Source of the DNA: Caldimicrobium thiodismutans | Lineage (GTDB): Bacteria > Desulfobacterota > Thermodesulfobacteria > Thermodesulfobacteriales > Thermodesulfobacteriaceae | NCBI RefSeq assembly: GCF_001548275.1 | Contig: NZ_AP014945.1 | Coordinates: forward strand, 1,590,001-1,622,000 | Length of the DNA: 32,000 nucleotides | Direction of reading: 5' to 3' | Shown here: in pieces, positions 1,504 through 27,479 of the stretch | Layout: every line of letters begins with the position of its first letter | Numbering within the stretch: the first letter of the stretch is position 1 | Notes under the pieces: generated by a model | What the model was told of the DNA's origin: nothing | Databases searched by the model: none | What the model saw: the letters and a program-made list of their open reading frames with translations, nothing else | Translations under genes and position numbers: made by a program

Positions 1504-1821
1504 TCAACTCCTTTCCTCAGAGTCCTTTTCAAATTTTCCCCAAACAGGGTCTTCTCCAAAGTGTTGGAACCAGAAATCAGCTGGATCTGAACCAGCTGGA
1601 TTAGGTTTTAATTCAACCTTATAATTATCACAGTAATCCATGAGTAGTTGATAAGCCTCATTGAGGGCCTTCATCTTTTCAGGATCCCCACCTTTGTCAG
1701 GATGAAGCTCCTTGGCCAGAGCATGATATTTTTCCACAATCTCTTTGCGGGTAGTTATTAAGGGTAATTTTAAAAATTTTCTTGCCCTCTCAAGAGCTTC
1801 CCATTTTTCCTTCCAGTTCAT
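1504..1821 (-). CDS. Small J-domain (DnaJ-like) protein
   Basis: 105 aa with YHALAKELHPDKGGDPEKMKALNEAYQLL (HPD tripeptide in a J-domain helix II/III context). No Gly/Phe or zinc-finger regions. Its stop lies 3 nt upstream of the lysC start. Confidence 0.8.
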   Translation of the reverse strand: MNWKEKWEALERARKFLKLPLITTRKEIVEKYHALAKELHPDKGGDPEKMKALNEAYQLLMDYCDNYKVELKPNPAGSDPADFWFQHFGEDPVWGKFEKDSEERS

Positions 1822-1833
1822 ATTAAATATTTA

Positions 1834-1861
1834 ATAATAAAGGCTTTTCGGAAAAATACAA
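1834..1861 (-). promoter_or_regulatory. Candidate sigma70-type promoter for the J-domain/lysC/cimA unit (TTGTAT-16-TATTAT)
   Basis: The minus strand reads TTGTAT (1861-1856), a 16-nt spacer, then TATTAT (1839-1834). The ATG at 1821 follows about 12 nt later with no Shine-Dalgarno, suggesting a very short leader. The -35 box sits 5 nt beyond the conserved end of repeat copy A. Confidence 0.35.
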
Positions 1862-1866
1862 GATTT

Positions 1867-2174
1867 CAAATTGCCTCACTAAAAATTTATTTGAAAATTT
1901 ATCGTTGCCTCATATAAAAAATTTTTCAATTTCAATTGAGCAAAGTTCTTAAAACTTTACGGAAAAACTATCTATTTTGCTTTTTTTAAATTCAAAAAAG
2001 GTGGACCTTAAGTCCCTTGGCAAAGCTTATTTCAGAGGAAAGAGTGGGTAAGGAGCTTTGCAGAAAGATAAGGCGATATCAGAAAATGCTTGAGAGAGCA
2101 TATTTAAAGAAAAAAGGAAATATTTTCGGGGAAAAATTGACAATAAAAAGGAGGGGAAGGTAAAATAATTTCCC
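1867..2174 (+). repeat. Intergenic cassette, copy A (about 300 bp, family of three in this window)
   Basis: Shares a left block with copy B (CAAATTGCCTCA..TTATCGTTGCCTCATATAAAAAAT, 24-nt exact run). Shares a right block with copy C (GGGAAAAATTGACAATAAAAAGGA, 24-nt exact run, plus GATATCAGAAAATG). The central part diverges. Confidence 0.85.
2137..2166 (+). promoter_or_regulatory. Candidate sigma70-type promoter at the right end of copy A (TTGACA-18-TAAAAT)
   Basis: Consensus -35 TTGACA at 2137-2142, an 18-nt spacer, then TAAAAT at 2161-2166. It points toward the 3' end of the convergent AMMECR1 gene. No annotated gene lies downstream. Confidence 0.45.
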
Positions 2175-2274
2175 TTTAGGAAATTAAATGAGGCATTACG
2201 GATTTAAATCCATTTTTCTTGGGTTTAGCAAAGGAGAGAACTTGCATGCTTCAGACAGAATTTAATTTCTTTGA

Positions 2275-7683: not shown

Positions 7684-7723
7684 AGTTTTATTTTAAGGCT
7701 TCTTTTTTGAAAAATCAATGTTA

Positions 7724-7858
7724 GTAGGGGTTCAAGATTTTGAACTCCTACATTTAATCGCAATCAATTTTTATTAATATAGAGGTCAGAGCTGTGGGGG
7801 TTGCCACATTGATGCGAAAGAACACATAACAGGCAAACACAGAGGTTTGCCCCTACCG
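7724..7858 (-). repeat. Right arm of imperfect inverted repeats flanking the AAA-ATPase gene
   Basis: The reverse complement reads GGGGCAAACCTCTGTGTTTGCCTGTTATGTGTTCTTT ... ATGTAGGAGTTCAAAATCTTGAACCCC, matching left-arm blocks in the same order. The ORF track shows the same peptides on opposite strands (VGANLC.C and NVGVQNLEP). Confidence 0.8.
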
Positions 7859-7977
7859 CAATCCATACACAAAATTTAATACCACCGCAGGGGGAAAGAG
7901 GAGAGATTGAGTTTTTAAAACCCAGATATGTGTTAAAATAAAATATCTCGAACCCTTTGAGATCATTGGAGGAGAAA

Positions 7978-10776: not shown

Positions 10777-11227
10777 AATGAAATCCTTTTATCTTTCAGC
10801 CCTTGTGGTTTTTATATTAGATAGGGTGACTAAGTATTTAATCCTCAAGGCGGGTGATTTCTATTATGAGGTCTTACCTTTTTTAAGCCTTCTTAAGGTC
10901 TGGAATAAAGGCATTGCCTTTGGTTTTATGGGAGCTAATCCTAACCTTTTTTCAACCCTCCTTTTAATAGCTATCCCTATAATATTAATTTTTTTATTGC
11001 TCTTTGCCCAAAAAGCCGATACTAATAGTAAAATAGCCTTTGGAATGATCTTTGGGGGTGGTCTTGGAAACTGGTTAGACCGAATGACCTTTGGAGCAGT
11101 GCTTGATTTTATTGATATTCACCTGGGTAGATTCCATTGGCCAGCTTTCAATATTGCAGATGCAGGGATTTCTTTTGGATTAATCCTTTTAATAGTGAGC
11201 TATGTATTTAAGGATTATAGAAAATAA
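10763..11227 (+). CDS. lspA: Lipoprotein signal peptidase (signal peptidase II)
   Basis: 154 aa, four hydrophobic segments, NKGIAFG and FNIADAGISFG motifs, and classic ileS-lspA linkage (14-nt overlap with ileS). Confidence 0.9.
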   Translation: MLLSKMKSFYLSALVVFILDRVTKYLILKAGDFYYEVLPFLSLLKVWNKGIAFGFMGANPNLFSTLLLIAIPIILIFLLLFAQKADTNSKIAFGMIFGGGLGNWLDRMTFGAVLDFIDIHLGRFHWPAFNIADAGISFGLILLIVSYVFKDYRK

Positions 11228-16196: not shown

Positions 16197-16553
16197 TGGT
16201 GGAGGCGGCGGGAATTGAACCCGCGTCCGAAGATAGTTCAGATTAAACCACTACAGGCTTAGCCTGTGGAGGAATCTCGTAGAGAGCTCGTCACAGGCAC
16301 CGAAGCCCTCTACCAGGCAAGAGGTATCTTGGAAATTCCTGTCTTGCCACCAGGAATCCCCAGAGCCTTCCTTGGTCACGCCCCTTGAGGCCGGAAGGCA
16401 AAGCACTCAAGGAACGAGGCTGCACTTAATTAAGCAGCCTGAGCGTAAGCGTATTCGTTGGCAATTGTGTTTTTGCACCCTTTTTAACGTGGCGAGTGCG
16501 ACCACGGCCTGCGATTTAACCCTACCTATCCCCGTCGAGCCCTTTTCGCCCCC
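16197..16553 (-). ncRNA. ssrA: tmRNA (SsrA), one-piece, CCA-encoded
   Basis: The minus strand begins GGGGGCGAAAAGGGCTCGACGGGG and ends GGACGCGGGTTCAATTCCCGCCGCCTCCACCA. The acceptor stem has a G3:U pair. The tag reading frame GCC AAC GAA TAC GCT TAC GCT CAG GCT GCT TAA (16462-16430) encodes ANEYAYAQAA. Confidence 0.95.
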
Positions 16554-16573: not shown

Positions 16574-16603
16574 TTAATATAAAACCTTTAGGTAAAAATT
16601 CAA
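16574..16603 (-). promoter_or_regulatory. Candidate promoter for ssrA (TTGAAT-18-TATTAA)
   Basis: The minus strand reads TTGAAT (16603-16598), an 18-nt spacer, then TATTAA (16579-16574), about 20 nt upstream of the mature tmRNA 5' end. The -35 box sits 5 nt beyond the conserved end of repeat copy B. Confidence 0.3.
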
Positions 16604-16608
16604 GCTCT

Positions 16609-16890
16609 CAAATTGCCTCATTAAAAATCTATTTGAAATTTTATCGTTGCCTCATATAAAAAATCTCAGCTCCTCTCTTGAACCTTCACGAAAAAACTAT
16701 CTATTTCGCCCCTCTTAAAATTACAAGCTTAGTTCTTTCGCAAAGCTTATTTTAAAGGAAAGAGGGCTGGAAAAGTAAAGGAGCTTTAAAGAAAGATAAG
16801 GAGATATCAGAAAATGTTTGAAAGAGCATACTTAGAAAAAAAGTATTTATTCCCAGGAAAAATTGACAGGAAAAAAGAGGGGGTAAAAAT
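16609..16890 (+). repeat. Intergenic cassette, copy B
   Basis: Shares exact runs of 37 nt (CATATAAAAAATCTCAGCTCCTCTCTTGAACCTTCAC) and 35 nt (TTTCGCCCCTCTTAAAATTACAAGCTTAGTTCTTT) with the reverse complement of copy C. Its left block is shared with copy A. Confidence 0.85.
16863..16890 (+). promoter_or_regulatory. Candidate sigma70-type -35 (TTGACA) at the right end of copy B, facing fliK
   Basis: TTGACA at 16863-16868, homologous to the box in copies A and C. The -10 is less clear (GTAAAAAT at 16883-16890, short spacer). Confidence 0.3.
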
Positions 16891-17051
16891 GAGCATAAGT
16901 TCAGATCCTTACAAGAAAAAGGAAGGGTTGATCTTTCATGAGAATCATTTGAAAGACATACATTTCCAGGGGAAATAGAAAATTTTTCCCAGAAAGGAAA
17001 ATTTTTCCAGTCCAATTCCTGAGAAAGCTTGATTTTTCTTATTTTTTCGAT

Positions 17052-17067
17052 TGGCATAAAGTTTGAT
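17052..17067 (+). promoter_or_regulatory. Candidate sigma54 (-24/-12) promoter upstream of fliK
   Basis: TGGCATAAAGTTTGAT has GG and the -12 G at the canonical 12-nt spacing of TGGCAC-N5-TTGC. However, the -12 reads TTGA rather than TTGC. It lies about 42 nt upstream of the fliK ATG. Confidence 0.3.
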
Positions 17068-17107
17068 TCTTTTTAGAAGAAAAAAAACTAAAAGTGAGGT
17101 GTAGGGA

Positions 17108-18628
17108 ATGAAGGTGATAAATAATCTTTTTTCACTTAGTCCTGAAGGCCAAATTCCTGGATATGGTTCAATGCAAGAAGGCCTGTTTCTTCAGGATTTT
17201 TTAATCCTTTTATTTGCTTATTTAAATCAAGGTGAGCCTACTCTATCAACCAATCCAAATCTTACTAAAGAGGTCTCTCTAAGCCTAAAAAACAACGATT
17301 CCATAACTGACAAATTGCCATCTCTCTCTAATACCCAGCAATTTTTCCTTAAAGATATTGAGAATTCAATATCTAATCATCTTACCCAATTACCCCTTCC
17401 TGATTTTGTCTTTAATACTTCTGGTGATCTAAAAAATTCATCTCAATTAATTAAAAAATTTACTCTAAATGAAGAATGGAAATATTTTGGAGATGAATTT
17501 TCCAATCTTTCATTATACATAGCCTTTACCATGATATTGCTTGAGAGATTTTTCAGTTATGATTCTTATAAGTTAAATACTAATCAGGAAAGTCAGGGAT
17601 CTCCAATGAATAATTTTCCTGAAAAAGGGTTTTTATTAAGCACTTTAAATTTTGATTCCCATCAAATTCAAGATCAAGTTAAAGAGGTGCTTACTTCTAT
17701 AGAGAGAAATATTAGACAAATTGATACAGAAAAAATAGAAAACTTTTTTGAAACTTTTAGTTCTTTAAATAAACTATCAGGTGAGACCCAAGACTTTTTA
17801 AAAAGCTATTTTGAGACACTAAGGGCTGAGATAAAAGAAGGGTATAACCTGCATGAAAATTTAAATCTTACAAAGATTAAAGATAGTTTTTCTCAGCTTT
17901 CAGATAAAGCAAAGGAGGAGATAAAAGGTCTTATTCAGCAGGCAAAGGAGGAGGTAAAAGAGGTTATCCTTCAGGAGAAAGGAATAGGTAGCAACCCACA
18001 TGAGGTATCTTTGCAGAGGTTTTGGTTATCAGGGGATGGGAAGCCTCTTCTTTTAAAGGTAAAAACTTTTTCTGTTAAGGAAGATTTTTCATCTGATTCT
18101 AAACAGCAGGTTTTAATTCAGAATCCAGTGGATTTTTATTTAAAGGGAAAGGAGGTCAACAGCCAGGCAGAGGCTTTTTTCCAGGAAAACAGGGTATTGT
18201 CACCTAAGGTGCAGGCTGGAGAGATTCATCACTTTGTAAGGGAATTAACTATTGAGATAGTGCCTTCCGGGGAAAGAAGGGCAATTGTTCAGCTTGAGCC
18301 ACCTGAACTTGGAAAGATGGAACTTGAAGTCAAGGTGCAGAATGGAGAGGTTGAGGTGCATGCCCGTGTAGAAAAACTTGAGACCCTCTCTCATCTTCAG
18401 CAAGATTTTTCCCAGATTAAGACCCAACTTGAGGATCTGGGCTTAAGGCTTAAGGATTTCCAGATTTCCCTCGGGCTTTCTCCAGAGGGGAAAAATTTTG
18501 GTAATGGTGAGGAAAAGGGTAATCAGAGAAAGGGTAATAAATTCGGTGAGGGGGTTATTACTCAGGTTGAGGGTGGAGAGGACAAAAGTCCTCTTTATCA
18601 TCAGGGAAGATTATATCGCATAGTTTAA
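17108..18628 (+). CDS. fliK: Flagellar hook-length control protein
   Basis: 506 aa with a low-complexity N-terminal part. The C-terminal Flg_hook-type domain reads IVQLEPPELGKMELEVKVQNGEVEVHARVEKLETLSHLQQDFSQIKTQLEDLGLRL. RBS GAGGTG. Confidence 0.85.
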   Translation: MKVINNLFSLSPEGQIPGYGSMQEGLFLQDFLILLFAYLNQGEPTLSTNPNLTKEVSLSLKNNDSITDKLPSLSNTQQFFLKDIENSISNHLTQLPLPDFVFNTSGDLKNSSQLIKKFTLNEEWKYFGDEFSNLSLYIAFTMILLERFFSYDSYKLNTNQESQGSPMNNFPEKGFLLSTLNFDSHQIQDQVKEVLTSIERNIRQIDTEKIENFFETFSSLNKLSGETQDFLKSYFETLRAEIKEGYNLHENLNLTKIKDSFSQLSDKAKEEIKGLIQQAKEEVKEVILQEKGIGSNPHEVSLQRFWLSGDGKPLLLKVKTFSVKEDFSSDSKQQVLIQNPVDFYLKGKEVNSQAEAFFQENRVLSPKVQAGEIHHFVRELTIEIVPSGERRAIVQLEPPELGKMELEVKVQNGEVEVHARVEKLETLSHLQQDFSQIKTQLEDLGLRLKDFQISLGLSPEGKNFGNGEEKGNQRKGNKFGEGVITQVEGGEDKSPLYHQGRLYRIV

Positions 18629-18648
18629 GAAGAGGAGGAGGTAAGAAA

Positions 18649-19311
18649 ATGGCGGTTATAAATAACATTGATGAAAAGACAGGACAGCCAGCTAATCTTT
18701 CAAGGATCCCTAAGAAAGTGCTTGATAAAGAGGCCTTTATGCAGCTTTTTATCACCCAGCTTCAGTATCAGGACCCAATGAAACCCATTGAGAATCACGA
18801 AATGGCTTTACAACTGGCAGCCTTCAATCAGGTGGATCAACTTATGAATCTAAATGACAAGCTTTCTCAAATGGTGGATTTATATAAAGCTAATGAGTAT
18901 ACCCTTTTTGCTAATCTTGTTGGGAAAGAAGTTAAGATTGAAGGTAATACAGTAAGAGTGGAAAATGGGAAATTTCTTGGTGCAGAATTTGAGCTTTCTA
19001 ATCCAGCTAATACTGCCCTTGTTACCATAAGGAATGCCCAGGGCCAGATCATAAAGACTATGCCCCTTTACAATCTCCCACAAGGCATAAATAGGGTTGA
19101 CTGGGATGGAACTGACGATAGAGGTAATCCAGTGCCAGATGGAAATTATAAAATTTCTATAACTATTGGAACGGGAGATAATGCTCAGAGTGTAACGCCA
19201 GTTGTTATAGCGAGGATTACAGGAGCTACTCTTGGAGACAAACCTACGCTTAAGGTAAACGATATTGAGACTATTAGTCTTGATAAAATAAAGGAGATTT
19301 TAGGGAGGTAA
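18649..19311 (+). CDS. flgD: Flagellar hook capping/assembly protein
   Basis: LDKEAFMQLFITQLQYQDPMKP N-terminal FlgD motif, plus a C-terminal Ig/FLgD-like domain (VDWDGTDDRGNPVPDGNYKISI). RBS GGAGGAGG. Confidence 0.9.
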   Translation: MAVINNIDEKTGQPANLSRIPKKVLDKEAFMQLFITQLQYQDPMKPIENHEMALQLAAFNQVDQLMNLNDKLSQMVDLYKANEYTLFANLVGKEVKIEGNTVRVENGKFLGAEFELSNPANTALVTIRNAQGQIIKTMPLYNLPQGINRVDWDGTDDRGNPVPDGNYKISITIGTGDNAQSVTPVVIARITGATLGDKPTLKVNDIETISLDKIKEILGR

Positions 19312-19316
19312 GTCCT

Positions 19317-20702
19317 ATGAGTCTCTTTGGCAATATGTATATTGGATACTCTGGGCTTTATACAGATACCATTGCTACAAGGGTATCTGCTGACAATATT
19401 GCTAACTTGAATACTATTGCTTTTAAGGGATCTCGGACTGAGTTTGCCAGTAGGCTCGTAAGGGAAAGCGAAGTTTTTGGAAGGGAAAGGGGGATTGGAT
19501 CAGCGGTCAAGGATATTCGCTCTATTTTTACCCAGGGACCAATTCAAAGCACAGATGTCCCCACAGACCTTGCTATATCTGGGAAAGGTTTCTTCGTATT
19601 AGCGGATAAAAAGGGCAATTTCTATTATACCAGGGATGGACAATTTTTTATTAATGATGCAGATAAGGATCATTTTACCTTACAAAATGCCCTTGGGATG
19701 AGCCTTCTTGGAGCAGACCCCACTGCAACCTCTGCAGATCTTGCAACTCTTAAACCTTATATTATTCCCAAGGTCATGTCCTCCAAGGCAACATCTACCC
19801 TTTCTGTCGAACTTATTCTGGATGCAAGAACCCCTGTAAATAGCCAGAGTTTACTTGACAAATATGATGCTTCTTTAAGACCTGATAAACCTTTAGAAGA
19901 GGGAGCATATAACTGGGTCTTTGACTGGTATATCTATGATCAAACCGGAGAGATGATACCAGTAAAACTTTATGTAGATAGAGGAGACTCTGCTAATACT
20001 TATGAAGTGCTTTTTGCCCTTGCTGATCCAGCTAAGGATGGAAGGGGAGATGGAAAGATGAAAGGAGCCTTTTTATACGGCACCTTAACCTTTGGTGGAG
20101 GGGGTGAAATAGTTTCAGCAGATTTTTCTCAGGTCTCCCTTGATGGCACTTTAACTCCCCTTGATCTAACAGCCCTTGGAAAGCCAAAAACCCCTTTAAA
20201 CATAAATGGAAGAACCCAGGAAATAACCCTTGATCTTGGTTTTACTGTGAATCCAGATGCTTCTATAACCCGGGAAAGGGGCTCTATTAAAATGATAGCC
20301 AATGCCTTTACCCAGCTTGGATTTATCCAAGATGGTTATCCTATGGGAATTTTTGAAAGAATTGAAGTTATAAATGAAGAGGGTCTTATTAAGGCCTGGT
20401 ATACCAACCAGAAAGAAATTGCGGTTGCAAGGATTTTTCTTGCAGATTTTTCAGGTTATGAAGATTCCCTGGAAAAATTAGGAAATGGGCTTTTTAGAAC
20501 CAGGCCTGGTGTTACCACCTATTTTTTTGCTCCAAGTTCTGCTGAAAGGGGAAGAATAGTATCAGGTGCCCTTGAGGGCTCAAATGTGGATCTTGCAAAT
20601 GAGATGGTGAATCTAATTATGCTTCAAAGAAGTTTTCAGAGTAATTCCCGGGTGATAACAACTTCAGATCAGATGCTTGAAGACTTTTTGAGACAGAGGT
20701 AA
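19317..20702 (+). CDS. flgE: Flagellar hook protein, short paralog (461 aa)
   Basis: N-terminal rod/hook motif (ADNIANLNTIAFKGSR), GKGFF..YTRDGQF, and a C-terminal LEGSNVDLANEMVNLIMLQRSFQSNSRVITTSDQML domain. Confidence 0.85.
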   Translation: MSLFGNMYIGYSGLYTDTIATRVSADNIANLNTIAFKGSRTEFASRLVRESEVFGRERGIGSAVKDIRSIFTQGPIQSTDVPTDLAISGKGFFVLADKKGNFYYTRDGQFFINDADKDHFTLQNALGMSLLGADPTATSADLATLKPYIIPKVMSSKATSTLSVELILDARTPVNSQSLLDKYDASLRPDKPLEEGAYNWVFDWYIYDQTGEMIPVKLYVDRGDSANTYEVLFALADPAKDGRGDGKMKGAFLYGTLTFGGGGEIVSADFSQVSLDGTLTPLDLTALGKPKTPLNINGRTQEITLDLGFTVNPDASITRERGSIKMIANAFTQLGFIQDGYPMGIFERIEVINEEGLIKAWYTNQKEIAVARIFLADFSGYEDSLEKLGNGLFRTRPGVTTYFFAPSSAERGRIVSGALEGSNVDLANEMVNLIMLQRSFQSNSRVITTSDQMLEDFLRQR

Positions 20703-20761
20703 AACCAGTGATCTTAAAAAAAATTAAAAAATAACCGAAAATAAAAAAAGGGGGTGATTTT

Positions 20762-23002
20762 ATGGGTTTAACAGATGCACTTTTTACTGGAACAAGTGGA
20801 TTAAGGGCCCTTGGGCATGGAATGAGTGTTATTGGTGACAATGTATCTAATCTTAATACTACCGCCTTTAAAGGGGCTCGGATTACCTTTTCAGACATTA
20901 TGGCCCAGTCTATTAATACAGCCGCAGGTTCTGGTCAGCTTGGAAGAGGTTCTGGAATTCAGGCTCTATATCAGCTTTTTACTCAGGGTGCCTTTGAATC
21001 CACAGCAAGTCCAACTGATATGGCTATTGCAGGGGCCGGGTTCTTTATGGTTAAGAACCCACAAACTACAGGTGGAATCTTTTATACAAGGGATGGACAG
21101 TTTGTAATTGACAAAGAGGGCTTCCTTGTTAATCCCCAGGGATTAAGGGTTCAGGGCTGGAAAATTGATGAAGTAACCAATGATATTACAGGAGCTTTAA
21201 CTGACATCCGTATAGACCGTTCTTCTCCTCCAGTAAAAACTACAAAGGTTGATATGATTACCAATCTTGATGCAAGAACCGAGGCAAGAAGTAATGTTAT
21301 CAATCTAAGTGGTAATCTCAAAGATGCAATAGGTGGTGGAGGCACCTCAGTATCTAATACTTTTGTAATAAGGGATATTGATGGAAAAGATAATAAAATA
21401 CAGGTTACTTTAACCTGGGATGTGGATATACAAAAATGGAGCTATACCATTACTGATGTTGCAAGTGGACAAATTCTCTCTTCAGGAACAAATGTTACTT
21501 CTACCAGGACAACTATAGAACTACCTTCAACAAAGGAACAGATAATTTTTGACTGGAGTAGTATTACTCATGATAGTGCCGCTGACGATAGCTTAAATAT
21601 TCCTGGAAGAACAGGAAGAATTGAAATTAACCCTACTGGAATTACACCGGGTGCGTGGACTTCATATTATTTTGATAATGTAGTGGATGCTAATGGAACC
21701 TCAAGGGATATAAGAGTTTGGTTACAATATGACAACACTACCTCAAGATGGAATTATTATGTTTTTGAAAATCCAACAGATGGTGCTACAGAGCCCTCTG
21801 AAGAAACAGGAGCAATTCAACTTGCAAGAGGTGAAAAATCAAATGAGACCAATATCTTTTTCTTTCTTGATGGAACCTCTCAGAGGATCAATCTTGATTG
21901 GTCAACCACTAATCCCACTAATCCCACTACATACATTTTACAGGAACCTCCTACTCTCTTTTCTTCCTGGGATGCCAAAAAAGAGGTGCCAATTCCATCT
22001 ACAGCCTATGCCTATCGTTCCACTATGTTTGTATATGACTCCTTGGGAACACCCCATGAAATCACCTTTTATTTTAATCCAACCTCAAAGGACAATGTAT
22101 GGGAAGTTCTTGTAGCTTGCAATCCAAATGAGGACCAGCGGGATTTTACAAGAGATACCAATCCCATGCAATGGCAATATGAAGAGGGTGCTGTAACTCA
22201 AAAGGTCTCTATAGATTCGGGAAAGGTTTTTACTGAGGAAAAAAGAGGAGTATTAATGTATGGAAGGCTTGAATTTGATAATCAGGGTAATGTGAAAAAG
22301 TTTTATGAGACCTACAGGCTTGATGCTAACACAGGAGCCCTTGTGCAGATAATTCAGGGATATGCCCAAAATGGTCAACCAGTAGCCTTACCAGAAGATA
22401 AATACGGTGCCCTTGGAGCCAATGGATATCCTTTGATAGTAGCAGATTTCCTTGGCATTGATTTCACTTATGATCATTACGCTCCCAATGATGTGAATCA
22501 AGGATCCCTTAGAAATGATCTACAACAAATTGAACTTAATTTTGGGTATTTTTATAAAGACACCTGGCGCTCTGAATCCGTTCGCACAACTCAATATGCA
22601 ACCTCTAATGCTACTCTCTTTTATGATCAGAATGGTTTTGGACCAGGAGCCCTTGAAAACATATCTGTTGACAATGAGGGTCGTATAACTGGAATCTATT
22701 CCAATGGAAGGGTTATTCCTCTCTGGATGGTGGGATTAGCAAACTTTAATGCCCCAGAAAGATTGCAGAAAGTGGGTGGAAATCTTTTTAGAGAAACCAC
22801 CCATTCAGGACCGCCTGTTACTGGAAAACCAGGCACAAATGGCCTTGGAACCATTGCCCCAAACTCCATTGAACAATCTAATGTGGACCTGGGAGAACAG
22901 TTTGTGAAAATGATCATCTTTCAGAGGGGCTTTCAGGCTGATTCTCGTATCATTACAGTTTCAGATACCATGCTTGAAGAACTCATTAATCTCAAGAGAT
23001 AA
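20762..23002 (+). CDS. flgE: Flagellar hook protein, long paralog (746 aa) with expanded central domains
   Basis: N-terminal GDNVSNLNTTAFKG, GAGFF..YTRDGQF, and C-terminal IEQSNVDLGEQFVKMIIFQRGFQADSRIITVSDTML. The central insertion is large compared with the short paralog. Confidence 0.85.
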   Translation: MGLTDALFTGTSGLRALGHGMSVIGDNVSNLNTTAFKGARITFSDIMAQSINTAAGSGQLGRGSGIQALYQLFTQGAFESTASPTDMAIAGAGFFMVKNPQTTGGIFYTRDGQFVIDKEGFLVNPQGLRVQGWKIDEVTNDITGALTDIRIDRSSPPVKTTKVDMITNLDARTEARSNVINLSGNLKDAIGGGGTSVSNTFVIRDIDGKDNKIQVTLTWDVDIQKWSYTITDVASGQILSSGTNVTSTRTTIELPSTKEQIIFDWSSITHDSAADDSLNIPGRTGRIEINPTGITPGAWTSYYFDNVVDANGTSRDIRVWLQYDNTTSRWNYYVFENPTDGATEPSEETGAIQLARGEKSNETNIFFFLDGTSQRINLDWSTTNPTNPTTYILQEPPTLFSSWDAKKEVPIPSTAYAYRSTMFVYDSLGTPHEITFYFNPTSKDNVWEVLVACNPNEDQRDFTRDTNPMQWQYEEGAVTQKVSIDSGKVFTEEKRGVLMYGRLEFDNQGNVKKFYETYRLDANTGALVQIIQGYAQNGQPVALPEDKYGALGANGYPLIVADFLGIDFTYDHYAPNDVNQGSLRNDLQQIELNFGYFYKDTWRSESVRTTQYATSNATLFYDQNGFGPGALENISVDNEGRITGIYSNGRVIPLWMVGLANFNAPERLQKVGGNLFRETTHSGPPVTGKPGTNGLGTIAPNSIEQSNVDLGEQFVKMIIFQRGFQADSRIITVSDTMLEELINLKR

Positions 23003-23016
23003 TCAGGCCTTAATCC

Positions 23017-23039
23017 GGGGAGAGGCGTTCCCTCTCCCC
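23017..23039. terminator. GC-rich hairpin after flgE (possible terminator, no clear U-tract)
   Basis: GGGGAGAGG-CGTTC-CCTCTCCCC, a 9-bp perfect stem, 15 nt after the flgE stop. There is no T-run on either strand, so its function as an intrinsic terminator is uncertain. Confidence 0.45.
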
Positions 23040-23095
23040 CCTTGCATAGGTTTAATATTCTTACAAAAAAAGAAGGGTGGTTAGTTTGGTAAAAA

Positions 23096-23392
23096 GGAAG
23101 TTATTTTATCTCACCTATCCTTTTTATTGTCAATTTTTCCCTGAAAATAATTTCCTTTTTTCTTTAAATATACTCTCTGAAGCATTTTCTGATATCTCCT
23201 TATCTTTATGTAAAGCTCCTTTACCTTTCCACTCGCTCTTTCCTTTGAAATAAGCTTTGCTAAAGAACTAAGCTTGTAATTTTAAGAGGGGCGAAAAAGA
23301 TAGTTTTTTTTGTGAAGGTTCAAGAGAGGAGCTGAGATTTTTTATATGGGGCAACGATAAAATTTTGAATAGATTTTTAATGAGGCAATTTG
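23096..23392 (-). repeat. Intergenic cassette, copy C (inverted relative to A and B)
   Basis: The reverse complement aligns end to end with copy B (37-nt and 35-nt exact runs) and with the right block of copy A (24-nt exact run including TTGACA). Confidence 0.85.
23103..23134 (-). promoter_or_regulatory. Candidate sigma70-type promoter at the right end of copy C, pointing into the flgE 3' end
   Basis: Minus-strand TTGACA (23134-23129). Candidate -10 boxes are GATAAA (18-nt spacer) or TAAAAT (20-nt spacer). No annotated gene lies downstream on that strand. Confidence 0.3.
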
Positions 23393-23396
23393 CCCC

Positions 23397-23425
23397 TTGT
23401 AAAGTTGTAAATTTAAATCTAAAAT
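23397..23425 (+). promoter_or_regulatory. Candidate promoter giving a leaderless helicase mRNA (TTGTAA-17-TAAAAT)
   Basis: TTGTAA at 23397-23402, a 17-nt spacer, TAAAAT at 23420-23425, then 6 nt (AAAGCT) and the ATG at 23432. No Shine-Dalgarno is present. Confidence 0.45.
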
Positions 23426-23431
23426 AAAGCT

Positions 23432-25750
23432 ATGTCCCCAAATTTAATTCTTTATCAGGCCAGTGCTGGCTCTGGAAAGACCTATCAACTCTCCTTAAGT
23501 TATCTTAAACTCTTGAAGTGCTTTTCTCAATCAAAAAAAGAGGCCTTAAAGGGCATTCTTGCTATAACCTTTACCAATAAGGCAGTTTATGAGATGAAGG
23601 ATCGCATTATTTCCTTTCTTAAAGAGATAGCTTTGAAGACAAATAAAGGCCTTATTCTTGCTCAGGAAAGTGGTCTCACTCCTCAGGAAGCAGAAAATTT
23701 TTTAGAGGAAATTTTTCTCCATTATGATTATCTTGAAATTAGAACCATTGATAGCTTTTTACTTAAGCTTTTCCGAGGGTTGGCCTACGAGTTGAATCTC
23801 CATCCTGATTTTAAAATCAAAAACTATTTAGATGATACCCATATTGAAAGGGCTCTCATTCGCCTCTTTGAAAAAGCTCAGCTTGATGAAAAAATCTGGC
23901 AATTTTTAGAGGCCTTTGTGGACTTTCTTTTAAGCTATGAAGACTCCTTAAAAATAAACTTTAAGAGCAAAATAATTTCAGAACTTGAAAAATTAGTTAA
24001 TCTTTCCACTTACCGGGAGGAACTTCTCCGCACAAATGAAGAATTTGATACCTTTGAAGAAAATTCCTCTGATAAACCTACAACCTCTTTAAGAGGACAC
24101 CTCTATTTTAAACTCTGGAACTTACTTAAAGAAGAATTAGAGAAGGTGCTTAATGAAGAAGGCACTCTCTATATGGGGATCTGGAAAGAAAAACTTGCTC
24201 AGACCTTACAGAGGGACTTTTTACCCTGGATTTATCTGAAACTTGGAAATTTGCAGGCCTTTATCATTGATGAGTTTCAGGATACCGATAAATTGCAGTG
24301 GACTGCAATTTTTCCCTTAGTTGAAGATCTCATAAGTAACCGCAAGCTTTTTCTTGCTGCAGGTGATACCAAACAGTCTATTTATCGCTGGAAAGGAGGA
24401 GATCCTGGTCTCATTCGTTCTCTTAAAGAGAATTTAAGAGATTATGGGCTTTCTGAAAAAAATTTAAATTTTAATTTCAGAAGCTCTCTGTCTATTGTTG
24501 AATTCAATAACTCTTTTTTTAATTTTCTTAAAAATGAGGAAGAACTTAAAAAAGAGATATTAAAAAGGATTGTTTTTGGAAAAAACGACAAAAAGCCAGA
24601 AGAGGATCTTTTATCCTTAGCGCAGAGTGAATTTGATGAACTTTTTTCCCATATTACTCAGTCTGCTAATAAAGATCATCCCGGGAAGGTTTTTATTGAA
24701 TGGCTCCCTGTGAAGGGAGAGACTCAAAAGTTAGCTAACGCCCTTATTTATCAAAAGATTAAAGATATATTAGAGGAGCTCAAGAACAAAGACTCCTTAG
24801 AAAATACCGCCATTCTTATGAGGGAAAACAAAGAGGTCATTGAGATGTCAGCCTATCTTTTATCCCAGGGGTTTAGTGTTATTGGAAGCTCTTTTTTAAA
24901 GTTAAAGGAATCTCCACTCATTAATACTCTGGTTTCCTATTTAAGGCTCCTTTATGGCTATGAGGATGAAATATCTCTCGCTACTATCCTATTGGGTCTC
25001 TTTAAAGAGAGGGGAAAGGAAATTCTCTTAAATTATCAAAAAATAAGACCTTTTAAAAATTTGGATTTTACCCTTCTTAGCTATCTTAAAACTTATGAAT
25101 CTTCCTTTTATAAGGAAGCCTTTGAAATTCCCCTCAGTAAGGGAAGATTACTAAATATTTACCAGTTTGTGAGATTCCTGGTAAGTTTCTTTTCCTTGGA
25201 AGAGGCCTTTCCTCAGGAAAAACCCTATCTTTGTAAATTTTTAAGCTTACTGCTAAGATTTACCGCTCAAGAAGGAGACCCCTTAGAGTTTTTAGATAAC
25301 TGGGAGAACTTAGCTGAGGAGGAAGAGGTTGAACTTCCAGAAGAAAGCTCAAGCATTAAAGTCATGACTATTCATAAGTCAAAGGGGCTTGAATTTTCTA
25401 AGGTAATTGTTCCCCTAAACTTTAATACCAGAAGGTATCAACCCCCTCTGGGTTTACTCTTTACTGAAAAGGGGGTGCATAAGGGAAAAAAGGATGAACT
25501 TCCTCAAGAGTTACTTTATCTCTATTATTTGGAAAAAATTCAGCATTCTTTGGAGATCTTTAATCTTTTTTATGTGGCCTTTACAAGAGCCATGCAAAAT
25601 CTTTATATTCTTGTTCCAGTGGGTTTAAAAAATAATTTTGATTCCGCTGAAATTTTTATTCAGATTTTTGAATCTTTAAAAGAGCAAGTCTCCGTCCTTA
25701 AAGTGAAAAATTTTCTTGTAGAAAGATCTTTAAATCTTCATAATTTTTAA
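23432..25750 (+). CDS. UvrD/Rep/AddA-family superfamily 1 helicase, no recognisable nuclease domain
   Basis: Walker A ASAGSGKT, motif Ia TFTNKAVYEM, motif II IIDEFQDT, motif III GDTKQSIYRWKGG, motif V TIHKSKGLEF, motif VI YVAFTRAMQNLYIL. The protein ends about 45 aa after motif VI. Confidence 0.85.
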   Translation: MSPNLILYQASAGSGKTYQLSLSYLKLLKCFSQSKKEALKGILAITFTNKAVYEMKDRIISFLKEIALKTNKGLILAQESGLTPQEAENFLEEIFLHYDYLEIRTIDSFLLKLFRGLAYELNLHPDFKIKNYLDDTHIERALIRLFEKAQLDEKIWQFLEAFVDFLLSYEDSLKINFKSKIISELEKLVNLSTYREELLRTNEEFDTFEENSSDKPTTSLRGHLYFKLWNLLKEELEKVLNEEGTLYMGIWKEKLAQTLQRDFLPWIYLKLGNLQAFIIDEFQDTDKLQWTAIFPLVEDLISNRKLFLAAGDTKQSIYRWKGGDPGLIRSLKENLRDYGLSEKNLNFNFRSSLSIVEFNNSFFNFLKNEEELKKEILKRIVFGKNDKKPEEDLLSLAQSEFDELFSHITQSANKDHPGKVFIEWLPVKGETQKLANALIYQKIKDILEELKNKDSLENTAILMRENKEVIEMSAYLLSQGFSVIGSSFLKLKESPLINTLVSYLRLLYGYEDEISLATILLGLFKERGKEILLNYQKIRPFKNLDFTLLSYLKTYESSFYKEAFEIPLSKGRLLNIYQFVRFLVSFFSLEEAFPQEKPYLCKFLSLLLRFTAQEGDPLEFLDNWENLAEEEEVELPEESSSIKVMTIHKSKGLEFSKVIVPLNFNTRRYQPPLGLLFTEKGVHKGKKDELPQELLYLYYLEKIQHSLEIFNLFYVAFTRAMQNLYILVPVGLKNNFDSAEIFIQIFESLKEQVSVLKVKNFLVERSLNLHNF

Positions 25751-26327
25751 GAACTTTGATGGCTTTAAGAGCGGGGTTTTTATAAGACACTAAAGGGACA
25801 GAGCAGGCTAAACAAAGCCTCTCATCAACAGCTGAGTCTCCCACATAAAGGGTATTTGAGGGGGAGCACCTGAAGTGTTCAAGGATTGAGCTAAGAGCCC
25901 TCGGGTCATTTTTGGGAATTTCAAGGGCTGTGCGAATTAAATGAAAGTATTTTTCAAGATCAAAATGTCTTAAAAGGGGGAGGGTTGAGGTTGTGCGATT
26001 GGTGCAAAGGGCTATTTTGACCCTGCTATAAGCCCATTCTAAAAACTCAGGGAGCCCGGGTTCCATTTGCATATAAACAAAAAAATCAGAATAGGGTGTT
26101 TTTTTAGCTATTTCAAAGGCAAGATCTTTAAGATCAGGATGCCTCCGAAAAAGAAATTCTATACACTCAGGAAGCGAGTGCATGTGCACATATTCAAGCT
26201 CTTCCTCTGTCAAAGGGCTCCTACCCGTTGCCTTGAGAATGGAATTATAATACTCTTTATTAGCTAAACGGGAATCAAAAAGGACCCCATCACAATCAAA
26301 GACAAGAAGTCTAAGAGGTTTTTTCAT
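25698..26327 (-). CDS. HAD-superfamily phosphatase (phosphoglycolate phosphatase-like)
   Basis: LLVFDCDGVLFDS (motif I), CTNR (motif II region), and GDSAVDE (motif IV-like). The 3' end overlaps the convergent helicase gene by 53 nt. Confidence 0.8.
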   Translation of the reverse strand: MKKPLRLLVFDCDGVLFDSRLANKEYYNSILKATGRSPLTEEELEYVHMHSLPECIEFLFRRHPDLKDLAFEIAKKTPYSDFFVYMQMEPGLPEFLEWAYSRVKIALCTNRTTSTLPLLRHFDLEKYFHLIRTALEIPKNDPRALSSILEHFRCSPSNTLYVGDSAVDERLCLACSVPLVSYKNPALKAIKVLKNYEDLKIFLQENFSL

Positions 26328-27289
26328 TTTTTTCTTGTAAGTAAGTAATCAGATATGTATAAAAGGGCTTCTTTATATGGAGAAGGAGGAAGAAACTGGA
26401 GATAATCTTTGGCAGTGTCAATAAAGGATCTGGCTTTTTGAAAGGTAAGTTCAAACCCTCTATTTTTTTCAATAATTTCATAGGCCCTTTTAAAATCCTT
26501 AGCCTCTATATCCTTACTTTTTAAAAGCCTAAGAAGTTCCTTCTTTTCTTGAGCTGGTGCTAAATTTAGAGCGAAGATAATAGGAAGTGTTACCTTGCCC
26601 TCGGAGAAGTCCTTGCCAAGGTCTTTACCTGTTTCTGCACTAACATAATCAAGGAGATCATCAATCACCTGAAAGGCCATACCAAGGTTGTATCCGAAAT
26701 TAGCAAGCTCCTCCGCCTTTTTATCTTCAACTCCAGAAAGAAGTGCTCCAACCTTACAACTGCAAGAGATAAGGACGGCTGTTTTCCTATAAATCACTTC
26801 ATAATAGGCCTCTTCTGAGATTTCTGTGTCATCTAAATGGAGAAGCTGAAGAACTTCACCTTCACTCATAAGCAGAGTGGTTTGAGTAATTTCCTCCATT
26901 ATAGAGGGATTTTGAAGGGAGCTTGCTATTTTAAGGGCCTTGGCATAGAGATAATCTCCAACCAGGATTGTTGCCTGATTACCCCAGAGGTTTCTTGCAG
27001 CCTTTCTTCCCCTTCTAAATTCTGCAGAATCAACTACATCATCATGCAAAAGGGTGGCTACATGAAGATATTCAAAAAGAAGAGAGGTCTCATATAAACT
27101 ATTTTTTAAGTCAGGGTTTAAGGCCTTAGCAGAAAGAACACAGAGAAGAGGACGAACCCTTTTCCCACCTGCAAAAAGCACATATTCACTAACCTTATTT
27201 ATAAAGGGATGTTGGGATACCCTTAGACTTTGCAAGGTCTCCTCTATTTTTGAGATCTCATTTTTAATAAGATTCAAGGGATTTTCCAC
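26324..27289 (-). CDS. ispB: Long-chain trans-polyprenyl diphosphate synthase (octa/heptaprenyl type)
   Basis: First and second Asp-rich motifs LHDDVVD and VIDDLLD. The 321-aa length and layout fit the IspB/HepT family. Confidence 0.85.
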   Translation of the reverse strand: MENPLNLIKNEISKIEETLQSLRVSQHPFINKVSEYVLFAGGKRVRPLLCVLSAKALNPDLKNSLYETSLLFEYLHVATLLHDDVVDSAEFRRGRKAARNLWGNQATILVGDYLYAKALKIASSLQNPSIMEEITQTTLLMSEGEVLQLLHLDDTEISEEAYYEVIYRKTAVLISCSCKVGALLSGVEDKKAEELANFGYNLGMAFQVIDDLLDYVSAETGKDLGKDFSEGKVTLPIIFALNLAPAQEKKELLRLLKSKDIEAKDFKRAYEIIEKNRGFELTFQKARSFIDTAKDYLQFLPPSPYKEALLYISDYLLTRKK

Positions 27290-27479
27290 AGCAATATTAA
27301 TATAACCCGAGGCATGAGCATTTCAAGTATCTCTAAGCGTCCAGGTCTTTTGAAACAAAAATCTGCATCTTTCCCACCCCTCCTTTTTCTGTAAGGATAT
27401 GAACTTATGTAGGTATCATTAGAGGATGCTACTTACTCTTTACTTTTTTATAAAAGGGCTTATATTCACTAATTAAGCT

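What the first reader, a model, noticed from the sequence alone, without database searches (positions are those of the whole stretch)
16609..23392. Flagellar hook module fliK-flgD-flgE-flgE bracketed by an inverted pair of the cassette, directly beside ssrA
Copies B (+) and C (-) are the two most similar copies. They sit in inverted orientation about 6.2 kb apart and enclose exactly the four hook genes plus a terminal hairpin. Both TTGACA ends point inward, and both left ends point outward to ssrA and the helicase.

Inverted repeats of this length and similarity are substrates for homologous inversion. Because each repeat carries boxes for both directions, an inversion would swap which outer gene is adjacent to which end of the module while keeping promoter-gene pairings. 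The arrangement could instead mark the hook module as a cassette acquired or duplicated together with its flanks.
Basis: partly seen in the sequence, partly recalled or inferred. Interest (0 to 1): 0.65.

Follow-up and report, generated by a model that had tools for sequence, protein, structure and literature searches.

The report
Promoter-linked repeat flanking flagellar hook operon
The two inverted 300-base repeats around the flagellar hook genes are real, but they belong to a small scattered family of non-coding repeats that always sit just upstream of a promoter, so the bracketing looks incidental rather than a DNA-inversion switch.

Summary
Copies B (16609-16899, +) and C (23093-23392, -) are inverted, about 85% identical and 6.2 kb apart. 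They enclose only fliK-flgD-flgE-flgE plus a hairpin. ssrA and a UvrD-like helicase lie outside their left ends.

The inversion and acquired-cassette readings are not supported.
- The repeat is non-coding and has at least four loci in Caldimicrobium thiodismutans: copy A at 1867-2203, and at least one more outside the window.
- In all four copies with DNA in hand, the left end lies exactly 27 nt from the -10 hexamer of an outward sigma70-type promoter. The genes served are a DnaJ-domain gene, ssrA, the helicase and an alcohol dehydrogenase.
- The hook operon has its own sigma54-like promoter and palindromic upstream sites outside the repeat, conserved in six species.
- A same-species genome (98.3% identity) is collinear. 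Three other Caldimicrobium species keep ssrA-fliK in the same orientation without copy C.
- The window has no recombinase gene and no compositional anomaly.

Recombination between B and C is physically possible (identical runs of 37 and 35 nt) but would change no promoter-gene pairing.

Best reading: an undescribed, low-copy, promoter-associated intergenic repeat, possibly MITE-like. The origin and function of its arms are inferred, not shown.

The parts
16609..16899 (+). Repeat copy B. The left end faces ssrA. The right end carries TTGACA and a degenerate ATGAGCAT end motif.
23093..23392 (-). Repeat copy C, inverted relative to B. The left end faces the helicase. The right end is truncated or diverged and faces the 3' end of flgE2.
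1867..2203 (+). Repeat copy A, full length with the extended right end ...AAATGAGGCATTACGG. It lies between AMMECR1 and the DnaJ-domain gene. This intergenic region is 453 nt here, against 153 and 49 nt in relatives that lack the repeat.
16197..16553 (-). ssrA (tmRNA, tag peptide ANEYAYAQAA).
16576..16603 (-). Sigma70-like ssrA promoter (TTGAAT-16-TATATT). The -10 hexamer starts 27 nt beyond the left end of copy B.
   Evidence: sequence; geometry statistic
23397..23425 (+). Sigma70-like helicase promoter (TTGTAA-17-TAAAAT). The -10 starts 27 nt beyond the left end of copy C. The ATG follows 6 nt after the -10 with no Shine-Dalgarno sequence, a leaderless-type arrangement.
   Evidence: sequence
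1834..1861 (-). Sigma70-like promoter of the DnaJ-domain gene (TTGTAT-16-TATTAT), 27 nt beyond the left end of copy A. The -35 hexamer and downstream leader are invariant, and the whole stretch is near-identical, in L011 and L013, which lack the repeat.
16863..16890 (+). Right-end promoter-like site of copy B (TTGACA-16-AAAAAT), pointing toward fliK and about 245 nt upstream of its ATG.
23103..23133 (-). Right-end promoter-like site of copy C (TTGACA-19-TAAAAT), pointing into the 3' end of flgE2.
   Evidence: sequence
2137..2166 (+). Right-end promoter-like site of copy A (TTGACA-18-TAAAAT, 11 of 12 matches), pointing toward the 3' end of AMMECR1.
16978..17008 (.). Two GGAAAATTTTTCC-type palindromes upstream of fliK and outside the repeat. 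Similar palindromes were found upstream of fliK in the five other species; in L016 by eye (GGAAATTTTTTTC, GGAAAAAAATTCC), not by the scan. Inferred binding sites for an enhancer-binding protein.
17051..17067 (+). Sigma54-like promoter TTGGCATAAAGTTTGAT of the hook operon, outside the repeat. Conserved as TTGGCAT-N5-TTTGAT in six Thermodesulfobacteriaceae species.
17108..18628 (+). fliK (hook-length control).
18649..19311 (+). flgD (hook cap).
19317..20702 (+). flgE paralogue 1 (461 aa).
20762..23002 (+). flgE paralogue 2 (746 aa), with a hypervariable middle at 21251-22000.
23017..23039 (+). Hairpin GGGGAGAGG-CGTTC-CCTCTCCCC after flgE2. No T-run follows it.
23432..25750 (+). UvrD/REP-type helicase. 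With HAD (25698-26327) and polyprenyl synthase (26324-27289) it forms a block that is inverted relative to two other Caldimicrobium species.
1504..1821 (-). DnaJ-domain gene served by the promoter next to copy A.

Best explanation
B and C are two members of a small dispersed family of non-coding intergenic repeats in Caldimicrobium thiodismutans. Each repeat is about 290-345 bp, and the species has at least four loci.

**Shown.**
- Every copy with DNA in hand has its left end, GGCAATT(T/C)G when read outward, followed by 4-5 nt, a -35-like hexamer, a 16-17 nt spacer and a -10 hexamer. The -10 starts exactly 27 nt from the repeat in all four.
- The transcription unit starts 6-22 nt after the -10.
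- The right end carries a TTGACA-N16-19-TA(A)AAT site that fires out of the repeat.

**Inferred function.**
- The left arm is 56 nt, holds two direct TGCCTCAT motifs 34 nt apart and is A/T-rich. I infer that it acts as an upstream element for the neighbouring promoter, either UP-like or an activator site.
- I infer that the right arm is a second, outward promoter.

**Inferred history.**
- The ssrA copy is the oldest, because its left arm is recognisable upstream of ssrA in two other species.
- The other copies arose later in this species. They spread either by transposition of a MITE-like unit with fixed ends or by recombination anchored at promoters.

**Consequence for the finding.** The hook operon is bracketed only because one copy serves the ssrA promoter on its left and another serves the helicase promoter on its right. 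The operon is an autonomous sigma54-type unit, with palindromic upstream sites, a TTGGCAT-N5-TTTGAT promoter, four genes and a hairpin. Homologous exchange between B and C could occasionally flip it, but that would change no promoter-gene pairing, and no flip is observed.
For: **Family size and distribution.**
- Three copies lie in the window.
- A fourth, copy D, lies in L020 at about 2245-2597 between an ADH gene (-) and prmA (+) (nhmmer E=5e-94).
- A 52-aa ORF call on the 1,814,952-bp C. thiodismutans chromosome (WP_153303658.1) translates the repeat but is not encoded in the window.

**Fixed geometry.** The -10 starts 27 nt beyond the left end in A, B, C and D (sequences). Hexamers of this kind occupy 2.0% of intergenic positions. 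The chance of the same offset in two independent flanks is about 4e-4.

**Copy A is an addition to a pre-existing promoter.**
- L011, L013 and L014 keep AMMECR1-DnaJ-aspartokinase synteny.
- Their DnaJ promoter is near-identical to the window's (the -35 hexamer and downstream leader are invariant), but the intergenic region is only 153 or 49 nt.
- Their upstream DNA shows no similarity to the repeat (z about 0).

**The left arm is ancestral at ssrA.** It is found upstream of ssrA in L005 (z=9.6) and L006 (z=7.3).

**Shared termini.** A and D end at the same bases on both sides, and B ends at about the same place.

**The repeat is non-coding.**
- Indels of 1, 2 and 9 nt shift the only recurrent ORF between copies and between strains.
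- Rfam gives no hit.
- RNAalifold gives weak energy and a positive covariation term on both strands.

**The hook operon is autonomous.**
- The sigma54-like promoter and the palindromes are conserved upstream of fliK in six species. These include Thermodesulfobacterium (L018) and L019, where the module sits in entirely different neighbourhoods.

**No inversion is seen.**
- Window and L004 are collinear.
- ssrA-fliK orientation is the same in L005/L015, L006/L007 and L016.
- GC skew across the module has the same sign as its flanks.
- No recombinase is present.
Against: - Only four copies could be read, and the whole genome could not be scanned. The copy number and the generality of the 27-nt rule are therefore uncertain.
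- The -35 at copy D (TTTCTT) is poor.
- No promoter has experimental support.
- The inverted TGCCTCAT motif at the two ends is not significant in a shuffle test, and no target-site duplication was found. The MITE-like origin is therefore unproven.
- Three of at least four copies lie within 21.5 kb. This suggests local processes I cannot specify.
- Two genomes do not exclude a low-frequency inversion polymorphism.
- Conservation of the repeat between strains (2.1% divergence in B, 5.3% in C) is no better than in other intergenic DNA (2.6-3.7%). Purifying selection on the repeat body is therefore not demonstrated.
Confidence: 0.65

Rival explanations
1. First reader's model. B and C are substrates for homologous inversion of the hook module, giving two interconvertible orientations in the population.
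For: - The pair is inverted and about 300 nt long at about 85% identity, with identical runs of 37, 35, 25 and 25 nt.
- C groups with B in its left two-thirds: 95-96% identity and a shared 13-nt deletion. In its right third it groups with A and D: 85% against 68%.
- A 9-nt indel is present in window C but absent in L004 C.
- These patterns are compatible with sequence exchange between copies.
Against: - Both available genomes of the species have the same orientation.
- Other species without copy C have the same ssrA-fliK orientation.
- GC skew shows no sign reversal.
- No recombinase is present.
- An inversion would have no regulatory effect, because the operon carries its own promoter.
- The mosaic pattern can also be explained by B-specific divergence of its right end, and the 9-nt indel by slippage between GGT repeats.
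- 14% divergence strongly depresses homologous recombination (my own knowledge).
Confidence: 0.07
2. The hook module, together with its flanking repeats, is a cassette acquired or duplicated as a unit.
For: - The four genes travel together and sit in different neighbourhoods in different genera.
- Between the window and L004, synonymous divergence is raised in flgE2 (dS 0.09-0.10) and in fliK (0.054), against about 0.02 in eleven flanking genes.
- The divergent tract ends inside copy C.
- Allelic replacement inside the module has therefore occurred.
Against: - ssrA-fliK-flgD-flgE-flgE is ancestral in four Caldimicrobium species.
- L005 and L006 have no copy C, and at the B position only the roughly 70-nt ssrA-proximal left arm (L005, nhmmer) or a degenerate trace of it (L006). 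L016 has neither B nor C.
- GC, GC3 and codon usage of the hook genes lie within the range of the flanks.
- flgD and flgE1 are near background dS, so the module was not exchanged as one piece.
- No second hook module was seen.
Confidence: 0.03
3. The repeat is a multicopy gene for a small RNA or a small protein, and its conservation reflects that product.
For: - A good inward sigma70-like site (TTGAAA-16-TATAAA) lies in the left arm.
- AAGGAG-N10-ATG is invariant in all copies.
- One reading frame (..KIRRYQKMLERAYLKKK..) is open in all copies, and gene callers annotate it in two of them.
Against: - The frame is broken by 1-nt and 2-nt indels between copies, and even between orthologous B copies of two strains.
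- Start codons are not conserved, and the C-terminal frames differ.
- The open frame fits the purine-rich composition.
- Rfam finds no family.
- The consensus folds are weak, about -24 to -25 kcal/mol for 300 nt, with no covariation support on either strand.
Confidence: 0.08
4. The repeat is not a mobile element. It is the upstream region of the ssrA promoter, copied to other promoters by ectopic recombination or template switching anchored in promoter similarity. This differs from the best explanation only in the mode of spread.
For: - The left arm is ancestral upstream of ssrA in three species.
- The ssrA and dnaJ-like promoters resemble each other in spacer sequence, even in species that lack the repeat.
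- A junction at the -35 hexamer would automatically give the constant 27-nt geometry.
- No significant terminal inverted repeat and no target-site duplication were found.
- Three copies cluster within 21.5 kb.
Against: - A and D share the same right terminus (...ATTACGG), and B ends at about the same place. Shared ends are expected for a discrete element, not for independent duplications.
- The promoter spacers at C and D do not resemble the ssrA spacer.
Confidence: 0.3

Closest known systems
Promoter-bearing bacterial MITEs, e.g. Correia (CREE/NEMIS) elements of Neisseria
   Same: - Both are small, non-coding, dispersed intergenic repeats.
- They are mostly found immediately upstream of genes.
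- They carry sigma70-like promoter sequences that can read out into neighbouring genes (review PMC10969869, read).
- Pairs of copies can in principle recombine.
   Different: - Correia elements are about 100-200 bp, with clear terminal inverted repeats, TA target duplications, an IHF site and more than 100 copies.
- Here the unit is 290-345 bp and there are only at least four loci.
- The end motif (TGCCTCAT, inverted) is not statistically supported, and no target duplication was found.
- The position relative to the neighbouring promoter is fixed to the base.
UP elements and upstream activating regions of stable-RNA promoters (e.g. E. coli rrn P1 with its FIS sites)
   Same: - Both are A/T-rich sequences directly upstream of the -35 of a stable-RNA (ssrA) promoter.
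- The sequence is conserved at that position across species.
- It is in constant register with the promoter in all copies.
   Different: - UP elements are about 20 bp and are not 300-bp repeats copied between loci.
- No alpha-CTD or regulator binding is known here. The comparison rests on my own knowledge and on position only.
Invertible promoter or gene segments (Hin/hix, Gin, FimB/E fimS; shufflons)
   Same: A DNA segment of flagellar genes is bounded by inverted repeats.
   Different: - Those systems use short (about 9-35 bp) inverted repeats and a dedicated recombinase gene next to the segment.
- They also carry a promoter whose orientation switches expression.
- Here the repeats are 300 bp, no recombinase is present, the promoter drives genes inside the segment, and only one orientation is observed.
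Chromosomal inversions between inverted rrn operons or IS copies
   Same: Inverted homologous sequences a few kb apart could be RecA substrates.
   Different: Known cases involve kilobase-long, nearly identical repeats. Here there are 300 bp at about 85% identity, and no polymorphism has been detected.

Membership tests
Site-specific invertible DNA switch | Segment bounded by inverted repeats | tested here: met
   The repeats are 300 nt, far longer than typical recombinase sites.
Site-specific invertible DNA switch | Serine or tyrosine recombinase gene in or next to the segment | tested here: not met
   A Pfam scan of all substantial ORFs of the window finds no recombinase, invertase or transposase.
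Site-specific invertible DNA switch | Orientation changes which gene is connected to a promoter | tested here: not met
   The hook operon carries its own sigma54-like promoter inside the segment. The outward promoters stay with ssrA and the helicase after any B x C exchange.
Site-specific invertible DNA switch | Both orientations found in genomes or reads | tested here: not met
   Window and L004 are collinear. Reads were not available.
MITE (miniature inverted-repeat transposable element) | Small (<600 bp) and non-coding | tested here: met
   The unit is 290-345 bp, and its ORFs are broken by frameshifts.
MITE (miniature inverted-repeat transposable element) | Terminal inverted repeats | tested here: inconclusive
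   An inverted TGCCTCAT motif lies 5-7 nt from both ends in A and D. A local-alignment shuffle test is not significant: 458-623 of 2000 shuffles score as well.
MITE (miniature inverted-repeat transposable element) | Target-site duplication | tested here: not met
   A and D share no consistent direct repeat at their ends. The empty site in L011 and L013 is not alignable beyond the promoter.
MITE (miniature inverted-repeat transposable element) | Multiple dispersed copies with common termini; filled and empty sites among relatives | tested here: met
   At least four loci exist, two of them outside the B/C pair. A and D share both termini. The AMMECR1-DnaJ site is empty in L011, L013 and L014.
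MITE (miniature inverted-repeat transposable element) | Related autonomous element with a transposase and the same ends | not testable with these tools
   The complete genome could not be scanned. A Transposase_31 gene lies 1.1 kb from copy D, but no link to the repeat is shown.
Upstream promoter (UP / activator-site) element | Fixed position directly upstream of the -35 of a functional promoter | tested here: met
   The offset to the -10 is 27 nt in four of four copies, with P about 4e-4 for two independent flanks. The promoters themselves are predicted only.
Upstream promoter (UP / activator-site) element | Stimulates transcription; bound by RNA polymerase alpha or a regulator | not testable with these tools
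   This needs reporter or binding assays.
Structured non-coding RNA family | Conserved secondary structure with covariation, or a match to a curated family | tested here: not met
   Rfam gives no hit. The RNAalifold covariation term is positive on both strands.

The most novel reading that the evidence does not exclude
The repeat is a mobile 'promoter-upstream module'. In this reading, a discrete non-coding element inserts, or is retained only, in exact register 27 nt upstream of the -10 of sigma70 promoters: ssrA plus several leaderless genes. That would wire unrelated genes (trans-translation RNA, a DnaJ-domain protein, a UvrD-like helicase, an alcohol dehydrogenase) to a common upstream control sequence. 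Promoter-phase-specific targeting or capture of this kind is not, to my knowledge, described for bacterial repeats.
Probability: 0.15. Interest if true: 0.65.

Novelty: new member of a known kind. Interest (0 to 1): 0.3.

Why it matters
**As posed.** The finding suggested an invertible or imported flagellar hook cassette. It turns out to be ordinary: two copies of a dispersed intergenic repeat happen to flank a self-contained sigma54 operon.

**What remains of interest.** The repeat family is undescribed. No match was found in Rfam, phage, plasmid or viral collections, or in the other genomes searched.

Its left end sits in the same base-exact register with an outward promoter in all four copies that could be read. 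If that holds genome-wide, it would be a compact natural example of regulatory DNA being copied between promoters in a thermophile. It would also be a convenient handle for studying promoter architecture and leaderless transcription in Thermodesulfobacteriota.

**A side result.** Strain-level allelic replacement and a hypervariable domain in the large FlgE paralogue are relevant to flagellar surface variation.

Tried and rejected
**Searches for more copies.**
- A genome-contig scan with GATAAGGNGATATCAGAAAATG gave 0 hits. The source genome and its species are not in that collection.
- A metagenome-contig scan with AGATAAGNNGATATCAGAAAATG gave one chance hit, the ribosome-binding site and start of an unrelated membrane protein.
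- Two viral-contig scans and blastn against plasmids and phages found nothing.
It returned only three loci and no new repeat copy.

**RNA.** Rfam at gathering and at relaxed thresholds gave only tmRNA. RNAalifold on both strands was weak.

**Small protein.**
- I rejected this because of frameshifting indels between copies and between strains.
- The peptide did serve as a proxy query that revealed further copies.

**MITE features.**
- The terminal-inverted-repeat test by shuffling was not significant.
- No target-site duplication was found.
- I considered IS200/IS605-like and IS110-like ends, but there are no supporting hairpins or Rfam hits.

**Other orientations.** Exact-protein look-ups for the helicase and for FliK, meant to find contigs with the alternative orientation, found nothing on record.

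**Other points.**
- An apparent similarity between the L011 dnaJ upstream region and the left arm, suggested by a MAFFT alignment, was rejected by a shuffle test with z about 0.
- A weak partial nhmmer hit at L010 13346-13451 (E=0.003) was judged spurious.
- I first read the 9-nt indel and the B/C versus A/C mosaic as gene conversion. I downgraded this because B-specific divergence and slippage explain them equally well.


Full report
**1.

- The window contains three copies of a roughly 300-nt sequence: A at 1838-2177 (+), B at 16580-16890 (+) and C at 23092-23399 (-).
- nhmmer E-values are 1e-95 to 1e-101, and nothing else scores below E=0.9.
- B and C are inverted and are the most similar pair in the window (85.9%, against 79-81% to A).
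- Their inner ends are 6.2 kb apart.
- Between them lie only:
  - 220 nt of fliK upstream DNA;
  - fliK, flgD and two flgE paralogues of 461 and 746 aa (Pfam);
  - a 9-bp G+C hairpin at 23017-23039.
- ssrA (16197-16553, -) abuts the left end of B. A UvrD-type helicase (23432-25750, +) abuts the left end of C.
- The TTGACA boxes of both copies point inward.

**2. Organism and comparators**

FlgE1 and aspartokinase searches place the window in Caldimicrobium (Thermodesulfobacteriaceae). The window's own proteins sit on a 1,814,952-bp contig, and a repeat-derived ORF from that contig is named Caldimicrobium thiodismutans.

| Locus | What it is |
|---|---|
| L004 | Same species, 98.3% nt identity over 21.4 kb |
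| L010, L020 | Contigs from one JGI metagenome; L010 is 99.4% identical to the window |
| L005/L015, L006/L007/L008, L016 | Other Caldimicrobium species with FlgE1 76-82% identical |
| L011-L014 | Relatives covering the copy-A region |
| L018 (Thermodesulfobacterium), L019 | More distant hook loci |

**3. The hook operon is self-contained and ancestral at this site**

- A sigma54-like promoter, TTGGCATAAAGTTTGAT (17051-17067), and two GGAAAATTTTTCC palindromes (16978-17008) lie upstream of fliK, outside the repeat.
- The same promoter motif (TTGGCAT-N5-TTTGAT) and similar palindromes occur upstream of fliK in all six species examined. This includes loci where the module has entirely different neighbours. 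In L016 the palindromes were seen by eye rather than by the scan.
- ssrA lies next to fliK in the same orientation in four Caldimicrobium species.
- L005 and L006 have no copy C. They have no full copy B either. What remains is the ssrA-proximal left arm, detected by nhmmer over about 80 profile positions in L005. Local alignment detects it in both species (z=9.6 and 7.3).
- GC, GC3, codon usage and GC skew of the hook genes match the flanks.
- The module was therefore not imported together with its repeats.

**4. What the repeat is**

*It is not coding.*
- The one frame open in all copies (..KIRRYQKMLERAYL..) is shifted by 1-nt and 2-nt indels between copies. This holds even between the orthologous B copies of the two strains.
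- The frame has no conserved start.

*It is not a recognisable or convincingly structured RNA*.

*It is dispersed.*
- Using the spurious peptide as a proxy query found two further gene calls.
- One leads to copy D in L020, between an alcohol dehydrogenase gene (-) and prmA (+).
- The other, WP_153303658.1, is on the C. thiodismutans chromosome and is not encoded in the window. It may be the orthologue of D or a fifth copy.

*Copy A is an addition to a conserved gene array.*
- L011, L013 and L014 keep AMMECR1-DnaJ-aspartokinase with an intergenic region of 153 or 49 nt, against 453 nt in the window.
- Their dnaJ-like promoter is near-identical to the window's; the -35 hexamer and the downstream leader are invariant.
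- Their upstream DNA has no similarity to the repeat.

*Its ends are defined.*
- A and D share both termini: C(A/G)AATTGCCTCA... and ...AAATGAGG(C/T)ATTACGG.
- B has a degenerate version of the right terminus after an internal deletion.
- C is truncated or diverged on the right.

**5. A constant relation to promoters**

Reading outward from the left end, all four copies show the same layout: 4-5 nt, a -35-like hexamer, a 16-17 nt spacer, then a -10 hexamer.

| Copy | After the left end | -35-like | Spacer | -10 | What follows |
|---|---|---|---|---|---|
| A | GGCAATTTG + 5 nt | TTGTAT | 16 nt | TATTAT | 12 nt, then ATG (DnaJ-domain gene) |
| B | GGCAATTTG + 5 nt | TTGAAT | 16 nt | TATATT | 22 nt, then the tmRNA 5' end |
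| C | GGCAATTTG + 4 nt | TTGTAA | 17 nt | TAAAAT | 6 nt, then ATG (helicase) |
| D | GGCAATTCG + 5 nt | TTTCTT | 16 nt | TATAAT | 9 nt, then ATG (ADH) |

- The -10 starts 27 nt from the repeat in every case.
- Hexamers of this type occupy 2.0% of intergenic positions, so the same offset in two independent flanks has P of about 4e-4.
- The three protein genes lack a Shine-Dalgarno sequence and start 6-12 nt after the -10, which is a leaderless-type arrangement.
- The left arm occupies roughly -40 to -100 of these promoters. It is 56 nt and the most conserved part (86-100% between copies). It holds two direct TGCCTCAT motifs.
- The right end carries TTGACA-N16-19-TA(A)AAT firing outward. It points toward fliK (B) and prmA (D), and into the 3' ends of AMMECR1 (A) and flgE2 (C).

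**6. Mechanism**

*Shown:* family membership, geometry, absence from relatives, and the autonomy of the hook operon.

*Inferred:*
- The left arm acts as an upstream promoter element. The ssrA copy is the oldest, because its left arm predates speciation.
- The unit spread within this species. It moved either as a MITE-like element with defined ends or by promoter-anchored ectopic recombination.

The MITE reading is weakened by a non-significant terminal-repeat test and by the lack of target duplications. The recombination reading is weakened by the shared right termini. I put the overall 'incidental bracket by a promoter-associated dispersed repeat' at 0.65. Within it, I leave the mode of spread open.

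**7. Inversion**

- B and C share identical runs of 37, 35, 25 and 25 nt, so rare homologous exchange is possible.
It would therefore have no regulatory effect.
- Nothing indicates that it happens. L004 is collinear, other species have the same orientation, there is no skew reversal, and there is no recombinase.
- The rearrangement that is visible nearby is a different one. The helicase-HAD-polyprenyl synthase block (23432-27289) is inverted relative to L005 and L006. Copy C sits at one junction, but no repeat sits at the other (27290-27479).
- C resembles B on the left and A/D on the right. That may reflect exchange between copies or simply B-specific divergence.

**8. Strain-level variation**

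- Between the window and L004, dS is about 0.02 in eleven flanking genes. It is 0.09-0.10 along all of flgE2 and 0.054 in fliK.
- The middle of flgE2 has dN about equal to dS.
- The divergent tract ends inside copy C.
- This indicates allelic replacement and diversification of the large hook paralogue, not movement of the whole module. flgD and flgE1 are near background.

**9. Comparison with known systems**

The closest known kind is the promoter-bearing bacterial MITE, such as the Correia element. Those are small, intergenic, lie upstream of genes and carry outward sigma70-like promoters (PMC10969869).

Membership is not established, for four reasons:
- terminal repeats are inconclusive;
- target duplication is not met;
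- no transposase partner is known;
- only at least four loci were found.

The repeat fails three of four defining features of invertible switches. The resemblance to UP or upstream-activator regions is positional only.

**10. Verdict**

- The inversion and acquisition interpretations are not supported by the available comparisons.
- The repeat itself is an undescribed, species-restricted, promoter-phased intergenic repeat of modest interest.

Noticed in passing
window 20762-23002 (flgE2), 17108-18628 (fliK), and 23000-23250: Between the window and the same-species genome L004, synonymous divergence is 0.09-0.10 across all of flgE2 and 0.054 in fliK. It is about 0.02 in eleven flanking genes. 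In the middle of flgE2 (21251-22000), dN is about equal to dS (0.087 against 0.093). The divergent tract ends inside repeat copy C. This suggests allelic replacement and diversifying change in the large hook paralogue. In L004, flgE2 is called as two ORFs of 78 and 694 aa.
   Followed up: partly
window 23432-27289: The block of helicase (+), HAD hydrolase (-) and polyprenyl synthase (-) is inverted relative to L005 and L006, where the order after flgE2 is polyprenyl synthase (+), HAD (+), helicase (-). Copy C sits at the flgE2 and helicase junction. No repeat copy sits at the other junction (27290-27479).
   Followed up: partly
window 16978-17067: A sigma54-like promoter (TTGGCAT-N5-TTTGAT) and paired GGAAAA(A)TTTTTCC palindromes lie upstream of fliK. 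The promoter is conserved in six Thermodesulfobacteriaceae species and similar palindromes occur in each. The hook operon is probably dependent on an enhancer-binding protein.
   Followed up: partly
window 6133-8024: A 516-aa AAA-ATPase_like + PDDEXK_9 gene, followed by an 86-aa ORF, is inserted between the spermidine synthase gene and ileS. In L013 and L014 those two genes are adjacent. The same-species JGI contig L010 breaks inside this gene.
   Followed up: no
window 1821, window 23432; L020 2209: The DnaJ-domain gene, the helicase gene and the ADH gene each start 6-12 nt after a -10 hexamer and have no Shine-Dalgarno sequence. This suggests leaderless mRNAs. By contrast, fliK has a clear GAGG ribosome-binding site.
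   Followed up: no
L020 98-1096: A Transposase_31 (PF04754, YhgA/Rpn-like PD-(D/E)XK) gene lies 1.1 kb from repeat copy D. No connection to the repeat was established.
   Followed up: no
window 1834-1861 and 16576-16603; L005, L011: The ssrA and dnaJ-like promoters share a similar spacer (TTTTnnnnAAAGnnTT) even in species that lack the repeat at the dnaJ-like gene. This may be a common promoter architecture in this lineage, or it may be chance.
   Followed up: no
window 11202-13100: A conserved 632-aa ORF between lspA and pabB has no Pfam family above threshold. The only match is a faint one to DUF948.
   Followed up: no
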